Assembly: GCA_047610985.1 (NCBI GenBank)
Contig: JBLFWU010000008.1
Coordinates: forward strand, 7,025-71,024
Reading direction: 5' to 3'
Origin: Nitrospinales bacterium
GTDB taxonomy: Bacteria; Nitrospinota; Nitrospinia; Nitrospinales; VA-1
DNA: 64,000 nt
Shown here: positions 12,601 to 30,717 of the stretch, piece after piece
Layout: each line of letters begins with the position of its first letter
Numbering within the stretch: the stretch's first letter is position 1
Notes under the pieces: generated by a model
Database searches by the model: none
Told to the model about the DNA's origin: nothing
The model's input: the letters and a program-made list of their open reading frames with translations, nothing else
Translations under genes and position numbers: made by a program

Positions 12601-12847
12601 GATGGCTCCAGAGTATGAAAATAGTTATTCCAATGTAATTGTATCTTTATTTCTCAATTAAAATAGACATTTTATTTTAAAAAAATATAACTGCTATGTT
12701 GTAAAGATATCCTTCGTGATCAATATTCACATGTCGGAACGCCTTAAATTAAGAGCTTATTAAGTCTATGGTTCCTGAAATTCAGGTAGAATGCAAAGAG
12801 AAAAAATTGGAGCCAACTAAAACACAACAAGCTCGGTTTTCTTGCAA

Positions 12848-13813
12848 ATGATTAGAATAATTTCCATCATCTTACTGGTTAATGTTTTTCTGATAGGTTC
12901 TTCACTTAATCCAGTCAGGGCAAAAGAAATATCTGATTGGGGAAGGATAAATCCGAAGCTTAAAAGGGTTTTGCCTTTAAAAAGTACTGGAAACCCTGAT
13001 GATGAAAATGAATGCCTTCTTTGCCATAAAAAATATATCAGAGCATTTGGAAAAACAATTCACGCTAAAATATTTGTTTCCCGAAAAGGAAAACTTTTAG
13101 GGAGTGCTTGTGAAACCTGCCATGGGCCGATGGTCAGGCACTTACGAGGTAAAACTCGTAAAGAAAGAAACTCTTCAGTTGTCTCCTTTAAATCAATAAG
13201 CCAGAAAAAGAAAGATTTTATTTGTCTTCAATGTCACGATGGGGGATCGAATGACTATTGGCAGGGTAGCTTGCATGAAATGTCGGATGTCACATGTATT
13301 GATTGCCATTATATATTGAAAAAGAGAAGTAAACGCGGACCTTATATAAGTGAAAACCCGAATAGAACATGCTTCCAATGTCATAGAGGGGTAAGAGCAA
13401 AATTTCAAAGGGCATCTCACATGCCAGAAAGAGAAGGAAAGGTTCTATGTAGCAATTGTCACGATGCCCATGGAGGGCCAGGTGATAGTCTTCTAAAACG
13501 ACCTACGGTTAATGAAACCTGCTATCAATGCCATCAGGAAAAGCGTGGTCCAAATATCTGGGAACACCCGCCGGTTCGAGAAAACTGTTCCAACTGCCAC
13601 GATCCTCATGGATCCAACTTCAAGGCGCTTTTAAAATTAAAGCCACCCTATCTTTGTCAGCAATGCCATATGAATGAATTTCATCCTAGTTCTATTTATG
13701 AGGGAAGTGATCTTGCTAATAATGAAGAGCGTATTATTGAAAAATCTTGTTTAAATTGTCATAGTGTGATCCATGGTTCGAGTCATCCATCAGGAGCGAG
13801 ATTCCAAAGGTAA
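12848..13813 (+). CDS. Periplasmic decaheme c-type cytochrome, MtrA/DmsE/PioA/MtoA-like
   Basis: Ten CxxCH motifs: CLLCH, CETCH, CLQCH, CIDCH, CFQCH, CSNCH, CYQCH, CSNCH, CQQCH, CLNCH. N-terminal signal peptide, about 320 aa, C-terminus CLNCHSVIHGSSHPSG. An alternative TTG start lies at 12842. Confidence 0.85.
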   Translation: MIRIISIILLVNVFLIGSSLNPVRAKEISDWGRINPKLKRVLPLKSTGNPDDENECLLCHKKYIRAFGKTIHAKIFVSRKGKLLGSACETCHGPMVRHLRGKTRKERNSSVVSFKSISQKKKDFICLQCHDGGSNDYWQGSLHEMSDVTCIDCHYILKKRSKRGPYISENPNRTCFQCHRGVRAKFQRASHMPEREGKVLCSNCHDAHGGPGDSLLKRPTVNETCYQCHQEKRGPNIWEHPPVRENCSNCHDPHGSNFKALLKLKPPYLCQQCHMNEFHPSSIYEGSDLANNEERIIEKSCLNCHSVIHGSSHPSGARFQR

Positions 13814-13844
13814 TTTGCCGACACTTGCATAGGGTTTTATTTTT

Positions 13845-16142
13845 ATGAGATCAATTAAAATCCTGAATTTAGTTCCAACTGTTTTTTTTCTCTTTCTCCT
13901 CACGGGTATTTCTCATTCGCAGGAAAATTTGCAGAGTATTGTTCCAAAAATCCCTGTCCAAAAAGGAGGGTTGGAATCCGTCTTGCTTGATGGATTGGAA
14001 AAAGACCAAGACTGGGTGGAAGAAGGATTAACTGGGAATTATAGTATGGGCGGTGTTGGGGCGGTTTTAAGCAATCAGTCTTCCAGGCTCATGAAATTTA
14101 ATGGGATGAAGAATGATTCCGGATATTTTCATGGTAATGCCGACCTTTCTTATCATCGAGGCTCTTATTTTGCGAATTTTTTAGCAGAAGATATCGGATT
14201 TGAAAACCGGAATCTTCTTTTAGATTTCGGGAAATACGATGATTATAAACTCACGGCCAGCTTCAGTCAGAGCTCCCAACTTTTGACGGATAATAGCAAG
14301 ACTCCCTTGGAAGGGTTGGGTGGAAGTAATTTTACTCTTCCCACAGGTTTTGTTACAGGCCCGAGTGGGGCGACCATATCAGTTGCAGGGGTAAAGGACT
14401 CGGACTTGAAAATAGACGGTAGAGATACTACAGTATTTGGGTTTTTAAAATCAGTCGGGAAAAATACGTTTGGCTTGAACTACAAAAGAGAAACAAAAAA
14501 TGGCTCCAGATCGTTGGGAGCGGTTGTGGGCACCAACGGTGGAAATGCAAGAAGCATCGTATTGCCAGAAACATTTGATCAAACTACCAATGAGATGACT
14601 GCGAGTTTTTTACATGTTGATGAAAACAGCCAGCTTAAAGTCGAGTACTTTCTTTCCCTGTTTGACAATCGAATAGAATCGGTAACTTTTCAAAGTCCTT
14701 ATTCCGGAGATATCGATTTAAGCGTCGGCGGGGTAGTCACGGCCCCCGGTGCAGGGCTTATTTCAAGGGCTCCGGATAATAGTTATCACCGGTTCAGCGC
14801 ATCGGGTCGCTGGAACTTATCAAGAACCGCCAGGGTTTCCGCTGTTATGGAATATGGATTGATGTCGCAGGATGATAAATTGTTCGCCTTTGCATTGGGT
14901 ACCAGTACCGATCTTCTTCCCCGCCAATCAGCGGAAGCAAAAACACACAGCCTCCATTTTAGTCTCAATGCTTCTGCCCGACCGGTGAAAAATCTAAGTG
15001 TGAGTACCCATTACCGGCATTACCAAACTATCAACGATACGCCCAGCACTTTGTTTTTAGCTGTTGTCAATGACACACAGGGTCAGGTTGCTGGAAATAG
15101 CGCAAGGGCTCTGATCAGCCAACCTTATGATACGACTCAGGATCAGATGAAGCTGGATGCTTCATATAGGGTTTTCAAGGCGACTCATTTTAAGCTGGGG
15201 TATGAAGTTGAACTCATGCAACGCAGTCACCGGGCAGTTGAAGAGTCTTGGGAAAATACATTTAAAGGCAGCATCCGGTCCACCTATATCCCTAATACCA
15301 GTATCAACCTTAAAGGCTCCTTTGCAAAAAAAGTTGCCGATGAATACGATGCCTTTCAAATATTCTCTGACCGACATACAGCTTCTTTTGTAGCAGGTTC
15401 TTCAGGATTTGATTCGCTTCCGGAGTTACGAAGGCTGGATGTTGCCAACCGGGATAGATCAAAAATGGGTGCTAACATCTCGTGGTTCCCTTCAGATTTT
15501 TATACCTTTGGAATCAATTACCAATATCAGGAAGACGATCACCCGGAATCGCCGATGGGATTAAGAACCCGTCGCAATCAAAATGTAACATTTGATGCCA
15601 ACTATTCTCCGAGTGATACGCAATCAATTTTTATTTTCTACACTTTTTCGAAAATGGATGCCGAGCAAAATGGCAGAGACCATAATCAATTTGCTGCAGG
15701 CTCAGCAAACGATGTGACCCGAAACTGGCGTGTGGATCATGACGACAAAACCCATACTATAGGCTTGGGATCACGTACCAAGTTCATGGAAAACCGATTG
15801 TCCTTTAACATTGACTATAGCTTTACGCAAAGTATCAGTAATACTACCTTTGCTGCGGGATCCAATGCCGCTGTAGCCAACCCTACTGAAATGCCCAACC
15901 TTGGTACGGTAAGGCATAGTTTTGAAACAATAGGGGAGTATAAAATAAATGAAAACTTGAGTTGGGGGATCAGTTATTTATATGAAAATTATAAGGAAGA
16001 TGATTTCGCGACGGATAATTTCGACCCAGGTTCAGTATTTGATACCGGTACTATAGCCAGTGTGATTCCACTTACCGGTTCTAATCAAGACTACAATGGC
16101 CATATTTTTATGGTGTTCGCTTCCTACCAGTTAGGGAATTAA
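13845..16142 (+). CDS. Outer-membrane beta-barrel protein, MtrB/PioB-like (decaheme-associated porin)
   Basis: The 765-aa protein has a signal peptide (LLTGISHSQE). Composition is rich in Ser/Thr/Asn/Gly/Tyr with alternating-strand character. It starts 32 nt after the decaheme cytochrome gene, matching the size and gene order of MtrB/PioB/MtoB. Confidence 0.6.
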   Translation: MRSIKILNLVPTVFFLFLLTGISHSQENLQSIVPKIPVQKGGLESVLLDGLEKDQDWVEEGLTGNYSMGGVGAVLSNQSSRLMKFNGMKNDSGYFHGNADLSYHRGSYFANFLAEDIGFENRNLLLDFGKYDDYKLTASFSQSSQLLTDNSKTPLEGLGGSNFTLPTGFVTGPSGATISVAGVKDSDLKIDGRDTTVFGFLKSVGKNTFGLNYKRETKNGSRSLGAVVGTNGGNARSIVLPETFDQTTNEMTASFLHVDENSQLKVEYFLSLFDNRIESVTFQSPYSGDIDLSVGGVVTAPGAGLISRAPDNSYHRFSASGRWNLSRTARVSAVMEYGLMSQDDKLFAFALGTSTDLLPRQSAEAKTHSLHFSLNASARPVKNLSVSTHYRHYQTINDTPSTLFLAVVNDTQGQVAGNSARALISQPYDTTQDQMKLDASYRVFKATHFKLGYEVELMQRSHRAVEESWENTFKGSIRSTYIPNTSINLKGSFAKKVADEYDAFQIFSDRHTASFVAGSSGFDSLPELRRLDVANRDRSKMGANISWFPSDFYTFGINYQYQEDDHPESPMGLRTRRNQNVTFDANYSPSDTQSIFIFYTFSKMDAEQNGRDHNQFAAGSANDVTRNWRVDHDDKTHTIGLGSRTKFMENRLSFNIDYSFTQSISNTTFAAGSNAAVANPTEMPNLGTVRHSFETIGEYKINENLSWGISYLYENYKEDDFATDNFDPGSVFDTGTIASVIPLTGSNQDYNGHIFMVFASYQLGN

Positions 16143-25846: not shown

Positions 25847-26365
25847 ATGAAAGATTGTCCCTGCGGTTCTGATTTCCCATACACTGATTGCTGCGGTCCT
25901 TTGATTCGTGGTACAGGTTTTGCCGATACGGCGGAAGACCTGATGCGCTCCCGGTACACTGCTTTTGCACAAAAAAACTGGGAATATCTGGTTTTGACCA
26001 GTCACCCCGAAGAAAAAAAAGAAATGGCCCGACTGGAATCATCTTTGATAGATCAAGAGGCTGAATGGAAAAAACTGGAAATAGTAGGTACTCGAAAAGG
26101 TGGTAGTGAGGATAACGAAGGTCAGGTCGATTTTATCGCGCACTATTTAAAGGATGGAACGCCACAGACCTTGCGTGAATCTTCGCGTTTTTATAAGGTC
26201 AACGGGCGCTGGGTTTATAGTAGAAAAGACTCCTCTCTCCCGCCTGTTCTCGCGGCACCTTTGAAAAAACCGAAAACATTTATCCGCGAGGAAGCTAAAG
26301 TCGGGCGTAACGATCCTTGCCCTTGTGGAAGCGGTAAAAAGTACAAAAAATGTTGTGCCTCCTAA
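25847..26365 (+). CDS. ychJ: YchJ family SEC-C motif protein (UPF0225)
   Basis: N-terminal CPCGS...CC and C-terminal [20 protein letters not shown] metal-binding motifs; MRSRYTAF block. Confidence 0.85.
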
Positions 26366-26612
26366 CGTTGAAGCTAAGTTTTAAGGGCATAATCTTGATG
26401 CCAACTCGATGCTTCTTTTCCTTTTATAGTGAGTAATGTTGGTGGACTGTAGTCAAAGAGACTATGGTATTTGTAGGATTAGCGGGTATTGACCAATTCC
26501 CAATACGCCAGCGAGCAAGGCTATATAAATCAATGGTATTTTGTTTTGTATACTTTCTAATCGATGCCCCTGAAAGCCTTAATTGACACTCGCTAGCCCA
26601 ACCACTCCCAAA

Positions 26613-26648
26613 CTTTTCCACAGGTTGTTAACAATTTTTGTGGAAAAG
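26613..26648. promoter_or_regulatory. Inverted pair of DnaA-box-like 9-mers within a 36-bp imperfect palindrome
   Basis: TTTTCCACA at 26614-26622 (+) and TGTGGAAAA at 26639-26647, which is TTTTCCACA on the minus strand. The 10-bp arms cttttccaca/tgtggaaaag flank the palindromic ttgttaacaa. Confidence 0.55.
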
Positions 26649-27016
26649 AATTTGCACGACTATCCCCTCTGTCAATGCCTTGTGGGACAAGGCTATCTAT
26701 ACCAATATGTTTGAAAGGCTCTATTTTTAGCCTTGAAAGGCGGGTGCAGGCGAGAACTACCCTTATCTAGAGTGAATTCATTGCAAAGAAAAGTAGAATT
26801 GCGGCGGCCTTTATATGTCATGAAAATACCCTGCGTCAAAATTCCAGTGGGACTTTAGTGCTGGTTTTAAGCCTTTATATGGAAAGAATTACTTTAATAA
26901 ATATGAAGGGTTTTTTGACTCGCGAGTTTAGTGGATATCCGGCTGCCAAGAATTTGTTACCAATTTTAGCCTTTAATGCTCGGCACAATCAGCGGGGCGC
27001 ACTCTAGAAAAAAAAA

Positions 27017-27025
27017 TGTGAAAAA
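27017..27025 (-). promoter_or_regulatory. DnaA-box-like 9-mer
   Basis: TGTGAAAAA on the plus strand equals TTTTTCACA on the minus strand, matching TTWTNCACA. Confidence 0.45.
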
Positions 27026-27150
27026 CTGTTAAAACTCGAATGGTCTGTCAATAAATAAATGTCAGATGGAGTAAAATACCATAAGTAGTTGAAATAATGT
27101 ATTTTATCGTTATTTTGATATGACAGGTTTTCATCGTTCTCAATTTCAAG
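27026..27150. other. AT-rich tract (possible DNA unwinding element)
   Basis: Visibly the most AT-rich stretch of the gap (e.g. gtcaataaataaatgtcag, gaaataatgtattttatcgttattttgatatg). It lies between DnaA-box-like sites. Confidence 0.35.
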
Positions 27151-27177
27151 TTTTTATCCAGCAGGGTGAAATGAAGT

Positions 27178-27197
27178 TTATTCACAAGTTATTCACA
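27178..27197 (+). promoter_or_regulatory. Tandem DnaA-box-like 9-mers
   Basis: TTATTCACA (27178-27186), then ag, then TTATTCACA (27189-27197). Each is one mismatch from TTATCCACA and matches TTWTNCACA. Confidence 0.55.
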
Positions 27198-27295
27198 GTT
27201 TGAAATTTTGTTAAGACTTGTTTATTTGTTCTTTATTGAACTGGCGAGGGAATTAATTTTGGTGTGGAGAGCCGTCAAAGTGCTTGCGCTATATA

Positions 27296-28213
27296 TTATT
27301 TATGAGATTGTAGGAAGCTTTCCATATCAAGAGGAAGGTTGGCGGAAAAAGAAAGCGAAACTCCTGAAACGGGATGATTTAATTCGAGATGGCTGGCGTG
27401 AAGAGCTTGTCTGTCCATTTTTAGCGTGCCTGAATTGGGGTTTTTACCGCCATAAAGCTTGTCGCCTATAACAGGGTGATGAAGAGATGCCAAATGAACT
27501 CTAATTTGATGCGTTCTGCCGGTTTCCGGTCGAAGTTTTAAGTAGGTCCAGCTTTTACAGCGTTGTAAGACTTCATAATGAGTGCAGGCTGGGCGACTGT
27601 GGTTTCCTCCCGTGCCCATTTTTTTACGCTGTGTTTTGTGTCTTCCTACGGGTGAGTCGATCAAACCTTTATCATTTTTTACTTTGCCTTTTACAAAGGC
27701 GAGATACTCTTTTTTTATTTCGCGGTTCTTAAATTTTACTGCGAGAACTTTATGAGCAGTTTCAGATTTTGCGATCAGCACCAACCCCGATGTCTCCTTA
27801 TCTAGTCGATGCACAATTCCCGGTCGTTCCACCCCGCCAATTCCGGAAAGGTCATTACAATGGTGGAGCAGGGCATTGACGAGGGTCCCTGCAGAATGGC
27901 CCGGTGCCGGGTGCACCACCATGCCTGCGGGTTTGTTAACCGCTAGCATATGCTCGTCTTCGAAAATAATGTCTAAAGGGATGTCTTCAGAAGTAGCGTC
28001 CAGCATCTCAAGAGGGGGTAGTTGTAATGCAACTTTTTCTCCGAGCCGCATCTTATATCCTGCTAGACGCGATTTTGCGTTCACCGTCACACAGTTTTCA
28101 TCAATCAGCTTTTTTAATCTTGAACGGCTGATTTCCTGCAGGTTTTCAGTTAGAAAAACATCGAGGCGTTTTTTAATCGAAGTCTCATTGACCTCAAACT
28201 CATAGTGTTGCAT
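27296..28213 (-). CDS. rluD: 23S rRNA pseudouridine synthase, RluD family
   Basis: S4 domain followed by the catalytic motif HRLDKETSGLVL. Start moved to ATG 28213 (MQHYEF...), preceded by GGGAG. Confidence 0.9.
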   Translation of the reverse strand: MQHYEFEVNETSIKKRLDVFLTENLQEISRSRLKKLIDENCVTVNAKSRLAGYKMRLGEKVALQLPPLEMLDATSEDIPLDIIFEDEHMLAVNKPAGMVVHPAPGHSAGTLVNALLHHCNDLSGIGGVERPGIVHRLDKETSGLVLIAKSETAHKVLAVKFKNREIKKEYLAFVKGKVKNDKGLIDSPVGRHKTQRKKMGTGGNHSRPACTHYEVLQRCKSWTYLKLRPETGRTHQIRVHLASLHHPVIGDKLYGGKNPNSGTLKMDRQALHASHLELNHPVSGVSLSFSANLPLDMESFLQSHK

Positions 28214-28328
28214 AGAACTCCCATGCCCTCTAGCGAGGGAGGTAAATAGAAAACCCCTCAATCGAGGAGCTTGTTGACAACCGTTGGATATTAAGAGTTT
28301 TGACCTTTTGAGTCCAGCGTTATGTTGG

Positions 28329-30118: not shown

Positions 30119-30207
30119 CCCACTAACGTGGGAGGCTATAGGTCAGGACGTTTGGTGGCGAAACTGAATCTATAAGCTTCTGGGGAAATCGATTGTGAAA
30201 ATATAAG

Positions 30208-30236
30208 CCCTCTCCTGTTTAGGAGGGGGTTTTTTA
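30208..30236 (+). terminator. Rho-independent terminator after the His-rich gene
   Basis: Stem ccctctcct / aggaggggg with loop gttt, followed by a T-run at 30230-30235. Confidence 0.75.
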
Positions 30237-30331
30237 TTGCCTCCAGTTTGCCATGCCGAGCCGTCACTCTGGGCTTGTCGACGGGTGAAGCACCTGAAGT
30301 TACCTTTAATCTCCCCCCTGATAAGGGGGAT

Positions 30332-30668
30332 TGAGGGGGGTTCCTGATAAATGTTGTTTACAACTATTTGGAAATATTTTTGGGAGTTGGGAACATTGTG
30401 ATGAAAACTAAGTCATTCTTATAAAAAACGTGGCTTCACTTCTAGAGTTTTTTGGGTGTTTTATGCCCAAGAGGTATAAGGAGGAAGCCTTGGGAGATAT
30501 ATATGAAACTCTCAAGGAAATGAATTCGAATGAGTGTTCAAAATTTACCGTTAAGCATGTTTCATCATTCAAAATAGTTTGTTTGATTTTAAGTGCCTTG
30601 CGAATTCGCTGGAGTGATTTTGTGGATTCTGAAAAAGAGCGCAATAGGTAAAAAGGCAACCCCCCTCA
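30332..30668. repeat. 337-bp segment bounded by an 11-bp perfect inverted repeat (tgaggggggtt / aacccccctca)
   Basis: IR arms at 30332-30342 and 30658-30668. They enclose one small ORF (30430-30651). A G/C hairpin at 30312-30330 lies just outside. Confidence 0.4.
30430..30651 (+). CDS. Hypothetical small protein with C-terminal hydrophobic helix (weak call)
   Basis: 73 aa from GTG, or 62 aa from ATG 30463 (MPKRYKEEALGDIYETLKEM...). No clear RBS. An equally long antisense ORF exists (30408-30659). Confidence 0.3.
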   Translation: MASLLEFFGCFMPKRYKEEALGDIYETLKEMNSNECSKFTVKHVSSFKIVCLILSALRIRWSDFVDSEKERNR

Positions 30669-30717
30669 GTCCCTCTTGTTAGGGTGGAGGTCGCAGCTTC
30701 CTCATCCGTGGTTAACT

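What the first reader, a model, noticed from the sequence alone, without database searches (positions are those of the whole stretch)
26366..27295. 930-bp gene-free gap between convergent ychJ and rluD carries a DnaA-box cluster and an AT-rich tract: candidate oriC with no dnaA nearby
This is the longest non-coding stretch in the window, yet the flanking genes converge, so no promoter needs this space.

Five 9-mers match the relaxed DnaA-box consensus TTWTNCACA:
- TTTTCCACA at 26614-26622 (+).
- Its inverted copy at 26639-26647 (-). Together the two form a 36-bp imperfect palindrome.
- TTTTTCACA at 27017-27025 (-).
- Tandem TTATTCACA-ag-TTATTCACA at 27178-27197 (+).

Two-mismatch sites lie at 26930-26938, 27154-27162 and 27263-27271.

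A motif with 7 fixed positions and one 2-fold position is expected about once per 3x10^4 positions per strand under equal base usage. Five copies within 600 bp is therefore very unlikely by chance. A strongly AT-rich block (27026-27150) sits between the boxes, as an unwinding element would.

The nearest gene runs fit outward replication: ychF to the redoxin gene on the minus strand to the left, and ffh to rplS on the plus strand to the right. Orientation over the whole window is mixed, however.

No dnaA or dnaN lies within 26 kb on the left or 37 kb on the right, so an origin here would be unlinked to dnaA. The alternative is a DnaA-titrating (datA-like), DARS-like or DnaA-regulated locus.
Basis: partly seen in the sequence, partly recalled or inferred. 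Interest (0 to 1): 0.6.

Follow-up and report, generated by a model that had tools for sequence, protein, structure and literature searches.

The report
Conserved DnaA-box cluster, probably not the origin
The gene-free gap holds a real cluster of binding sites for the replication initiator DnaA, conserved across the Nitrospinaceae family, but both flanks carry the same strand bias, so it is probably a DnaA-regulating site and not the chromosome's replication origin.

Summary
The 930-bp gap between ychJ and rluD is gene-free. It holds 5 of the window's 10 TTWTNCACA sites within 584 bp, which no simulation reached.

The window is from a Nitrospinaceae bacterium. Twelve related genomes, down to 58-65% RluD identity, keep the gap. 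They also keep all five boxes, with changes that preserve box-likeness and box-to-box distances constant to 1-3 bp. No RNA family, conserved RNA fold, conserved ORF or promoter excess was found.

The oriC reading fails the one test that separates it from its rivals. Four-fold-site GC skew has the same polarity from at least 36 kb left to 37 kb right of the gap. A single-replichore model beats a switch at the gap by 42.6 log-likelihood units, and six relatives show no sign change either.

I therefore favour a non-origin DnaA-binding regulatory locus of the datA / DARS / Bacillus DnaA-box-cluster kind.
- The "palindrome" is really a triple box with the orientation and 5-bp spacer of the E. coli DARS core.
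- A conserved block matches the IHF consensus.

Whole-replicon skew could not be computed and dnaA could not be located, so oriC keeps about 10%.

The parts
25847..26365 (+). ychJ (SEC-C motif protein), left flank
   Evidence: NCBIfam YchJ-family hits; Pfam YchJ_M-like and SEC-C on the identical protein.
26366..26516 (.). Unconserved spacer after ychJ
   Evidence: 0-5% invariant columns in the 6-genome alignment.
26517..27255 (.). Conserved non-coding block of about 740 bp
   Evidence: Block-wise conservation in alignments A1 and A4 and in the 12-genome MAFFT alignment. No Rfam hit, conserved fold or conserved ORF.
26614..26622 (+). DnaA box a, TTTTCCACA
   Evidence: Exact pattern match. Identical in 11 of 12 genomes; L084 has TTTTCTACA.
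26625..26633 (+). Middle box b, in 11-bp register with box a. It is the degenerate TTGTTAACA in the window's clade and TTTTACACA in the second clade.
   Evidence: 12-genome alignment. TTTTACACA fits TTWTNCACA in L082, L083, L084, L092 and L143.
26639..26647 (-). DnaA box c, TTTTCCACA. It is inverted and lies 5 bp from box b.
   Evidence: Invariant in 12 of 12 genomes. Boxes a-b-c share the orientation and 5-bp spacer of the E. coli DARS1 and DARS2 cores.
26831..26845 (.). Conserved non-box block, TGCGTCAAAATTCC
   Evidence: GTCAAAA is kept in 11 of 12 genomes; L084 has GCCAAAA. The bound factor is unknown.
26941..26960 (-). Conserved block GCTGCCAAGAATTTGWTACC, a candidate IHF site at 26947-26959 (-)
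   Evidence: One mismatch to WATCAANNNNTTR in the window. Exact match at the aligned position in L001, L002, L004 and L154.
27017..27025 (-). DnaA box TTTTTCACA
   Evidence: In relatives it reads TTTTCCACA, TTTTTCACA or TTATTCACA, and it is present in 12 of 12.
27026..27150 (.). AT-rich tract between the single box and the tandem boxes. It contains the conserved CTGTCAATAA (27044-27053), ATTGAA and TCTCAAT.
   Evidence: 71% AT. Conserved sub-blocks appear. It lies on the 5' side of the tandem boxes, so it is not where a BUS-type unwinding element would sit.
27178..27186 (+). Tandem DnaA box 1, TTATTCACA
   Evidence: Variants are TTACTCACA, TTTCTCACA, TTACTAACA and TTTTCCACA in most relatives; L084 and L143 read CTTTCCACA and ATTTCCACA at these columns.
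27189..27197 (+). Tandem DnaA box 2, TTATTCACA, 2 bp after box 1 (11-bp register)
   Evidence: Variants are TTATCCACA (L002), TTTTTCACA, and TAATTCACA or TAACTCACA in the second clade.
27198..27245 (.). T-rich tract downstream of the tandem boxes, ...CTTGTTTATTTGTTCTTTATTG
   Evidence: 73% AT. Conserved within the window's clade but not in the second clade, where it is GC-richer.
27296..28213 (-). rluD (RluA-family pseudouridine synthase), right flank. The 305-aa form is the length of most close homologues.
   Evidence: NCBIfam RluD and RluA-subfamily hits. Most close homologues are 303-315 aa.

Best explanation
The gap is a family-conserved DnaA-binding nucleoprotein site that is not the replication origin.

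**Proposed working**
- DnaA occupies three groups of sites held at fixed distances: a triple box (26614-26647), a single box (27017-27025) and a tandem pair (27178-27197).
- The distances are about 378 bp and about 161 bp.
- Bendable AT-rich DNA and a probable IHF-type site (26947-26959) help fold the DNA into a defined complex.
- The complex sequesters DnaA and/or changes its nucleotide state, and so tunes when the distant oriC fires.
- This is the job done by datA and DARS1/2 in E. coli, and by the non-origin DnaA-box clusters of Bacillus subtilis and Streptomyces.

**Shown**
- The boxes exist, and their positions and spacing are conserved.
- Coding, RNA-structure and promoter signals are absent.
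- There is no strand-asymmetry switch.

**Inferred**
- That DnaA and IHF actually bind.
- The direction of the effect, whether titration or inactivation versus reactivation.
For: **Cluster is real**
- 5 of the window's 10 TTWTNCACA sites fall within 584 bp. No simulation reached this.

**Conservation**
- The gap persists downstream of rluD in 12 Nitrospinaceae genomes, including circular 2.31-Mb and 2.43-Mb contigs.
- It also persists in L006, where ychJ and the redoxin gene are absent.
- Nearly all substitutions in the five boxes fall at the degenerate positions and keep TTWTNCACA or leave one mismatch. Intervening DNA diverges.
- Box-to-box distances are held at 378-381 bp and 161-163 bp.

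**Not the origin**
- Per-gene four-fold-site GC skew: nearly all minus-strand genes on both sides are C-rich on the coding strand (about -0.07 to -0.42; two short genes are slightly positive). Plus-strand genes mostly run from about 0 to +0.47, with four clearly negative.
- Log-likelihood is -2625.0 for one replichore against -2667.6 for a switch at the gap.
- No sign change appears in L001, L003, L004, L005, L082 or L084.
- The same polarity holds 26-36 kb further left in a 94%-identical relative.

**Not RNA or protein**
- No Rfam family.
- Weak consensus folds with negligible covariation.
- No ORF conserved in frame.
- Promoter-like sites are not enriched.

**Resemblance to known DnaA-cycle sites**
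- Read on the minus strand, the triple box is box(+), 5 bp, box(-), 2 bp, box(-).
- E. coli DARS1 is TTATCCACT-ATTCC-TGTGGATAA-CCA-TGTGTATTA, and DARS2 has the same plan (the 5-bp I-II spacer is stated in PMC6868365).
- An IHF-consensus block is conserved. IHF is reported to exist in Nitrospinae (PMC10316083 and PMC10325909).
Against: - No binding or functional data exist.
- The architecture is also what an origin looks like: distal boxes, a tandem pair in 11-bp register and an adjacent AT/T-rich tract.
- The TTTTCCACA-N16-TGTGGAAAA arrangement occurs about 350 bp upstream of dnaA in many other phyla. Geometry alone therefore does not separate a DARS- or datA-type site from oriC.
- The middle box of the triple is degenerate in the window's own clade, whereas DARS box II is the strongest box in E. 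coli.
- The conserved block of about 740 bp is larger than DARS2 (455 bp) or minimal datA (262 bp) (PMC5742627).
- The true oriC and dnaA of these genomes were not located. The non-origin status rests on 73 kb of local strand asymmetry, not on a whole-replicon profile.
Confidence: 0.6

Rival explanations
1. It is the chromosomal replication origin (oriC) of Nitrospinaceae, unlinked to dnaA. DnaA bound to the distal boxes and to the tandem pair would unwind the adjacent AT/T-rich DNA.
For: - Five conserved boxes with fixed spacing.
- A tandem pair in 11-bp register followed by a T-rich tract that passes the permissive BUS rule in the window's clade (rule from PMC8287927).
- A distal-plus-proximal box layout as in B. 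subtilis incC (PMC6669920).
- An IHF-like site.
- The inverted pair with a 16-bp spacer is common next to dnaA elsewhere.
Against: - There is no switch of four-fold-site GC or AT skew at the gap. Polarity is the same from -36 kb to +37 kb, and the log-likelihood difference is 42.6. No sign change appears in six relatives either.
- No dnaA lies within 36 kb on the left or 37 kb on the right.
- The T-rich tract downstream of the tandem boxes is not conserved in the second clade.
- The larger AT-rich tract lies on the 5' side of the tandem boxes. That is the wrong side for a BUS-type or E. coli-type DUE. The side rule rests partly on my own reading of the E. coli and B. subtilis origins.
Confidence: 0.1
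2. It is a transcription unit, such as an unstructured sRNA, a small protein or an antisense RNA, whose promoter is controlled by DnaA acting as a transcription factor.
For: - DnaA-box clusters in B. subtilis often regulate neighbouring genes (own knowledge of Ishikawa 2007 and Okumura 2012; the clusters are mentioned in PMC5742627).
- A 740-bp conserved non-coding block leaves room for a transcript.
Against: - The flanking genes converge on the gap.
- No Rfam match.
- No conserved fold.
- No conserved ORF.
- Two promoter-like sites against 3.3 expected, and the -10 element of the better one is not conserved.
- No terminator-like site inside the gap.
Confidence: 0.1
3. The 9-mers are bound by a protein other than DnaA, such as a nucleoid-associated or chromosome-organising factor. 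Their match to the DnaA box would then be coincidental.
For: - Several conserved blocks are not DnaA boxes: TGCGTCAAAATTCC, GCTGCCAAGAATTTGATACC and CTGTCAATAA.
- The centre of the palindrome, GGTTGTTAACA, is invariant within the window's clade.
Against: - Variation among orthologous boxes follows the known degeneracy of the DnaA box. Positions 3 and 5 vary while TT.T.CACA is largely kept, and L002 carries the perfect E. coli box TTATCCACA.
- The same 9-mer arrangement sits in front of dnaA genes in many phyla.
Confidence: 0.08

Closest known systems
E. coli DARS1 / DARS2 (DnaA-reactivating sequences)
   Same: - A non-coding chromosomal site away from oriC.
- A core of three 9-mers, one opposed to two, with a 5-bp spacer between the opposed pair. 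The window read on its minus strand is TTTTCCACA-AAAAT-TGTTAACAA-CC-TGTGGAAAA.
- Like DARS2, it has extra boxes, a candidate IHF site and tightly conserved spacings (PMC5742627).
   Different: - No sequence homology, and a different phylum.
- The II-III spacer is 2 bp, not 3.
- The middle box is degenerate in the window's clade, whereas DARS1 box II is a perfect consensus box.
- The block is about 740 bp against 101 and 455 bp.
- No Fis is expected outside Proteobacteria (own knowledge).
- ADP release from DnaA is untested.
E. coli datA (DDAH locus)
   Same: - A cluster of about five DnaA boxes in roughly 1 kb of non-coding DNA outside oriC, with an IHF site.
- Two of its boxes are about 160 bp apart across AT-rich DNA: datA boxes at L210 2245 and 2407, 162 bp apart. 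The window's single box and first tandem box are 161 bp apart.
   Different: - Box orientations differ.
- The IHF-like block here lies outside that 161-bp interval.
- No homology.
- DnaA-ATP hydrolysis is untested.
- The distance to oriC is unknown.
Non-origin DnaA-box clusters of Bacillus subtilis and Streptomyces coelicolor
   Same: Intergenic clusters of DnaA boxes away from the unwinding site that restrain untimely initiation by binding DnaA (cited in PMC5742627).
   Different: Those clusters are less elaborate, to my knowledge. Here the spacing is fixed to within 1-3 bp, and additional conserved non-box motifs point to a defined architecture, not a simple sink.
Bacterial oriC with a basal unwinding system (BUS; B. 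subtilis incC)
   Same: Distal box or boxes plus a proximal tandem pair 2 bp apart, followed in the window's clade by a tract with T in the middle of most in-frame triplets.
   Different: - It is not at a strand-asymmetry switch.
- The putative trio tract is not kept in the second clade.
- No dnaA or dnaN is nearby.

Membership tests
oriC (chromosomal replication origin) | Cluster of DnaA boxes | tested here: met
   Five exact TTWTNCACA sites in 584 bp. All are conserved.
oriC (chromosomal replication origin) | Lies at the switch of leading/lagging strand composition (GC-skew minimum) | tested here: not met
   Four-fold-site GC skew has the same polarity from -36 kb to +37 kb. Log-likelihood is -2625.0 for one replichore against -2667.6 for a switch at the gap. 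Relatives agree. The whole-replicon profile is not available.
oriC (chromosomal replication origin) | AT-rich unwinding element on the 3' side of a box read as TTATCCACA, with DnaA-trios (BUS rule: box, spacer of 0-16 bp, then three or more NAN triplets) | tested here: inconclusive
   The window's clade passes the permissive rule: ATT-TTG-TTA starts 7 nt after box 2, and 10 of 13 in-frame triplets have a middle T. The second clade does not pass within 16 bp (rule). The trio strand and orientation are taken partly from my own knowledge.
oriC (chromosomal replication origin) | Supports DnaA-dependent autonomous replication; marker-frequency peak | not testable with these tools
   No reads or cultures are available.
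DARS (DnaA-reactivating sequence) | Core of three DnaA boxes. Box I opposes II and III, with a 5-bp I-II spacer. | tested here: met
   On the minus strand of the window: box, 5 bp, inverted box, 2 bp, inverted box. E. coli DARS1 and DARS2 read from NC_000913.3 have spacers of 5 and 3 bp (PMC6868365). Caveats: the II-III spacer is 2 bp, not 3, and the middle box has 2 mismatches to TTWTNCACA in the window's clade.
DARS (DnaA-reactivating sequence) | Promotes ADP release from ADP-DnaA | not testable with these tools
   This needs a biochemical assay.
datA (DDAH locus) | DnaA-box cluster outside oriC, with an IHF-binding site between essential boxes | tested here: inconclusive
   A cluster outside a skew switch: yes. 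The IHF consensus is exact in 4 of 12 genomes at the aligned position 26947(-) and has 1 mismatch in the window. The site lies between the triple box and the single box. IHF-consensus sites are not significantly enriched in the gap: 4 against about 1.5 expected.
datA (DDAH locus) | [quoted passage not shown] | not testable with these tools
   The distance to oriC is unknown, and no assay is available.
Structured non-coding RNA gene | Match to a known RNA family, or a conserved secondary structure with covariation | tested here: not met
   No Rfam match at gathering score, and only chance-level E-values. RNAalifold energies are -5 to -20 kcal/mol over 200-400 columns, with covariation terms between +0.1 and -2.6.

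The most novel reading that the evidence does not exclude
The locus is a catalytic DnaA-cycle element of the DARS2 or datA type. It would be an IHF-assisted complex on a head-to-head/head-to-tail triple box that changes the nucleotide state of DnaA, operating in Nitrospinota. That would make such elements ancient and widespread, not a speciality of enterobacteria. It would also suggest that the similar triple boxes seen upstream of dnaA in many phyla do the same job.
Probability: 0.2. Interest if true: 0.65.

Novelty: new member of a known kind. Interest (0 to 1): 0.4.

Why it matters
**Why the locus is useful**
- Outside E. coli and a few Firmicutes and Actinobacteria, almost nothing is known about chromosomal sites that control the initiator DnaA away from the origin.
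- This locus is conserved across the main family of marine nitrite oxidisers. Box spacing is fixed to within a few base pairs, and it carries a DARS-like triple box and an IHF-type motif.
- It is therefore a well-defined, testable candidate for such a regulator in a phylum that, unusually, also has IHF.

**A practical warning**
- A DnaA-box cluster with an AT-rich tract is not enough to call an origin in MAG contigs.
- Local four-fold-site skew can reject the call even without the whole replicon.

Tried and rejected
**RNA, protein and promoter readings**
- Rfam at gathering and at permissive thresholds, and tRNA/tmRNA search: nothing.
- RNAalifold on three segments, and on both strands of the right half: no convincing consensus structure.
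- Conserved small ORF: stop-free stretches differ in frame and position between genomes. The 115-aa gene called inside the gap of L084 has no counterpart elsewhere.
- Promoter and terminator scan: no enrichment.
- Plasmid homology, for an integrated replicon: none.

**Attempts to locate dnaA or the true origin**
- No DnaA motifs in the window.
- No dnaA in 10 kb further left (L085).
- Coordinates on the circular contigs are uninformative because their start points are arbitrary.
- Looking for N. gracilis accession numbers to compare with DnaA CCQ89934.1 gave none.
- Tetranucleotide screening of the metagenome hits for a Nitrospinaceae dnaA locus found only L187. That is a short 3-box intergenic site with no dnaA.

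**Other tests**
- The metagenome scan for the inverted box pair returned mostly unrelated origin or dnaA-promoter regions of other phyla. It shows the arrangement is generic and adds little about this locus.
- The BUS/DnaA-trio test did not discriminate.
- IHF-consensus counting in the gap is not significant on its own.

Full report
**Organism and setting**

The window is a chromosome piece of a Nitrospinaceae (Nitrospinota) bacterium with about 43% G+C.
- The RluD protein next to the gap finds Nitrospinaceae and Nitrospinota MAGs at 78-93% identity, then drops to other phyla at 47% or less.
- Gene content is ordinary housekeeping: tolB-pal, radA, ispD, mutY, queE, rng, rodA, ychJ, rluD, moaB, queC, ffh, rnhB and recJ.
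- No tRNA gene and no Rfam family occurs anywhere in the window.

- The gap 26366-27295 lies between the stop codons of ychJ (+) and rluD (-).
- It is the longest stretch of the window without an ORF of at least 100 aa.
They are half of the ten sites in the whole window.
- Simulation shows this clustering does not arise by chance.
  - The largest cluster within 600 bp was at most 3 in 300 Markov-1 windows.
  - None of 20,000 stretches with the gap's own composition reached five sites.
- The AT-rich tract is real but moderate, at 71% AT.
- The three 2-mismatch sites exist. They are not conserved.

**Conservation**

Relatives keep the synteny ychJ, gap, rluD, with a gap of about 880-940 bp. They include L001-L005, two circular contigs of 2.31 and 2.43 Mb (L082, L084) and metagenome contigs L083, L092, L143 and L154.
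- L006 has 58% RluD identity and lacks ychJ and the redoxin gene. It still has a gap of about 1.1 kb after rluD, with recognisable boxes at the corresponding places.
- The first 150 bp after ychJ are unconserved. Positions 26517-27255 are conserved in discrete blocks separated by freely diverging spacers.

In a 12-genome alignment the five boxes are always present.
- Nearly all their substitutions fall at the known degenerate positions 3 and 5.
- Examples are TTATTCACA, TTACTCACA, TTTTCCACA, TTATCCACA and TTTTTCACA.
- Distances between boxes are kept within 1-3 bp: 378-381 bp from the palindrome to the single box, and 161-163 bp from the single box to the first tandem box.

By contrast, the window's other large intergenic region (30119-30717) cannot be aligned even to the closest relative. 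The gap therefore carries a DNA-level element under purifying selection, including selection on spacing.

**What it is not**

- There is no Rfam match even at permissive thresholds.
- RNAalifold finds only the invariant palindrome, a 6-bp hairpin and weak folds with negligible covariation, on either strand.
- No reading frame stays open in register across genomes.
- Promoter-like sites are fewer than in shuffles, and no terminator-like site lies inside the gap.
- There is no similarity to plasmids.

**The origin test**

An origin must sit where the leading strand switches. Window-wide GC skew is positive throughout, and the cumulative curve rises monotonically.

To remove the effect of gene orientation, I measured G versus C at four-fold degenerate sites, gene by gene.
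- Nearly all minus-strand genes have a C-rich coding strand, whether left or right of the gap. Values run from about -0.07 to -0.42, with two short genes slightly positive.
- Plus-strand genes mostly run from about 0 to +0.47, with four clearly negative.

Averaged over orientation, the plus strand is G-rich by +0.13 on the left and +0.18 on the right. T exceeds A on both sides.

A model with one replichore has log-likelihood -2625.0. A switch at the gap gives -2667.6, barely better than no asymmetry at all (-2674.1). Scanning all possible switch points places the best ones at the window's ends.

Relatives agree.
- No sign change is seen in L001, L003, L004, L005, L082 or L084, although the ychJ-side value is weak within 10 kb.
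- The same polarity holds in the 10 kb beyond the window's left edge in a 94%-identical relative. That stretch also has no dnaA.
- No DnaA signature occurs in the window.

Replication therefore runs through this locus in one direction, and has done so for as long as the family has existed. I could not obtain whole replicons or locate dnaA. This evidence is local, covering 73 kb, but it is strong.

**Anatomy and likely mechanism**

The "palindrome" is a triple box: TTTTCCACA-GG-TTGTTAACA-ATTTT-TGTGGAAAA.
- The middle 9-mer is in 11-bp register with the first.
- It is degenerate in the window's clade. In the second clade (L082, L083, L084, L092, L143) it is a proper box, TTTTACACA.
- Read on the minus strand, the plan is box, 5 bp, inverted box, 2 bp, inverted box.

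I read the E. coli DARS cores from NC_000913.3.
- DARS1 is TTATCCACT-ATTCC-TGTGGATAA-CCA-TGTGTATTA.
- DARS2 is TTATTCACC-TTTTC-TGTGGATAG-AGT-TGTGAAGAA.
- Both share the orientation plan and the 5-bp spacer, which are considered critical for head-to-head DnaA contacts (PMC6868365).

Other features of the block:
- The single inverted box lies 378 bp to the right of the triple box.
- The tandem pair, with a 2-bp spacer suited to head-to-tail contacts, lies 161 bp further on.
- A conserved block at 26941-26960 is an exact E. coli IHF consensus in four relatives and one mismatch away in the window.
- IHF is reported to occur in Nitrospinae, unlike in most phyla (PMC10316083 and PMC10325909).
- Other conserved blocks, TGCGTCAAAATTCC and CTGTCAATAA, have no assigned factor.

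Fixed spacing, extra factor sites and a non-origin position are the hallmarks of DARS2 and datA (PMC5742627). My best reading is a DnaA-binding regulatory complex that titrates DnaA or alters its nucleotide state. Whether it acts negatively or positively cannot be told from sequence.

**Limits of the analogy**

About a dozen hits lie about 350 bp upstream of a dnaA gene, often with a third box in the centre. The arrangement is a generic DnaA module, not a DARS signature.
- The tandem pair followed by a T-rich tract passes the permissive BUS rule in the window's clade but not in the second clade.
- The larger AT-rich tract is on the 5' side of the tandem boxes.

These features keep a residual origin-like flavour. 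I leave oriC at about 10%, and a dormant or former origin cannot be excluded.

**Verdict**

- The oriC interpretation is not supported.
- It is a new member of a known kind: non-origin DnaA-box clusters, not previously described in Nitrospinota to my knowledge.
- It is of moderate interest, mainly as a clean, testable candidate for DnaA-cycle control outside Proteobacteria.

Noticed in passing
window 12842-16142 (+): A DmsE/MtrA-family decahaem c-type cytochrome (12842-13813) lies next to an MtrB/PioB-family outer-membrane porin (13845-16142). This is a porin-cytochrome module of the kind used for extracellular electron transfer, here in a Nitrospinaceae genome (NCBIfam).
   Followed up: no
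L121, L122, L127, L150, L188, L193 (metagenome contigs): Low-GC (34-36%) marine contigs carry TTTTCCACA-N16-TGTGGAAAA. The centre is a GTTAAT/ATTAAC motif like the window's GTTAAC, and a third box lies 63 bp away. They sit inside ORF-poor regions of 1.2-2.7 kb. These are possibly origin-like or DnaA-regulatory regions of another marine lineage.
   Followed up: partly
L101, L115, L116, L117, L124, L130, L133, L158, L172, L176, L194, L202: In contigs from soil, peat and water metagenomes, the same inverted box pair lies about 350 bp upstream of a dnaA gene. In most of them there is a third box in the centre, with spacers of 3 and 4 bp. This looks like a widespread triple-box module in dnaA promoter or oriC regions.
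   Followed up: partly
window 30119-30717: The second-largest ORF-free stretch (599 bp) cannot be aligned even to the closest relative, L001, which is about 90% identical in the flanks. It is a variable spacer, in contrast with the conserved DnaA-box gap.
   Followed up: no
window 26831-26845 and 26941-26960: Two conserved non-box blocks share a TCAAA(A)TTC core in inverted orientation about 105 bp apart. In the second clade both read GTGTCAAAATYC. This may be a pair of sites for an unidentified DNA-binding protein.
   Followed up: partly
window 27296-28261 (-): The mechanical rluD ORF of 321 aa starts at a TTG. Most close homologues are 303-315 aa, and the top hits are 305 aa, so the real start is probably at 28213.
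   Followed up: no
L084 11271-11618 (-): A 115-aa gene with no Pfam hit is called inside the homologous gap of one circular relative. It has no conserved counterpart in other genomes and is probably a spurious call.
   Followed up: partly
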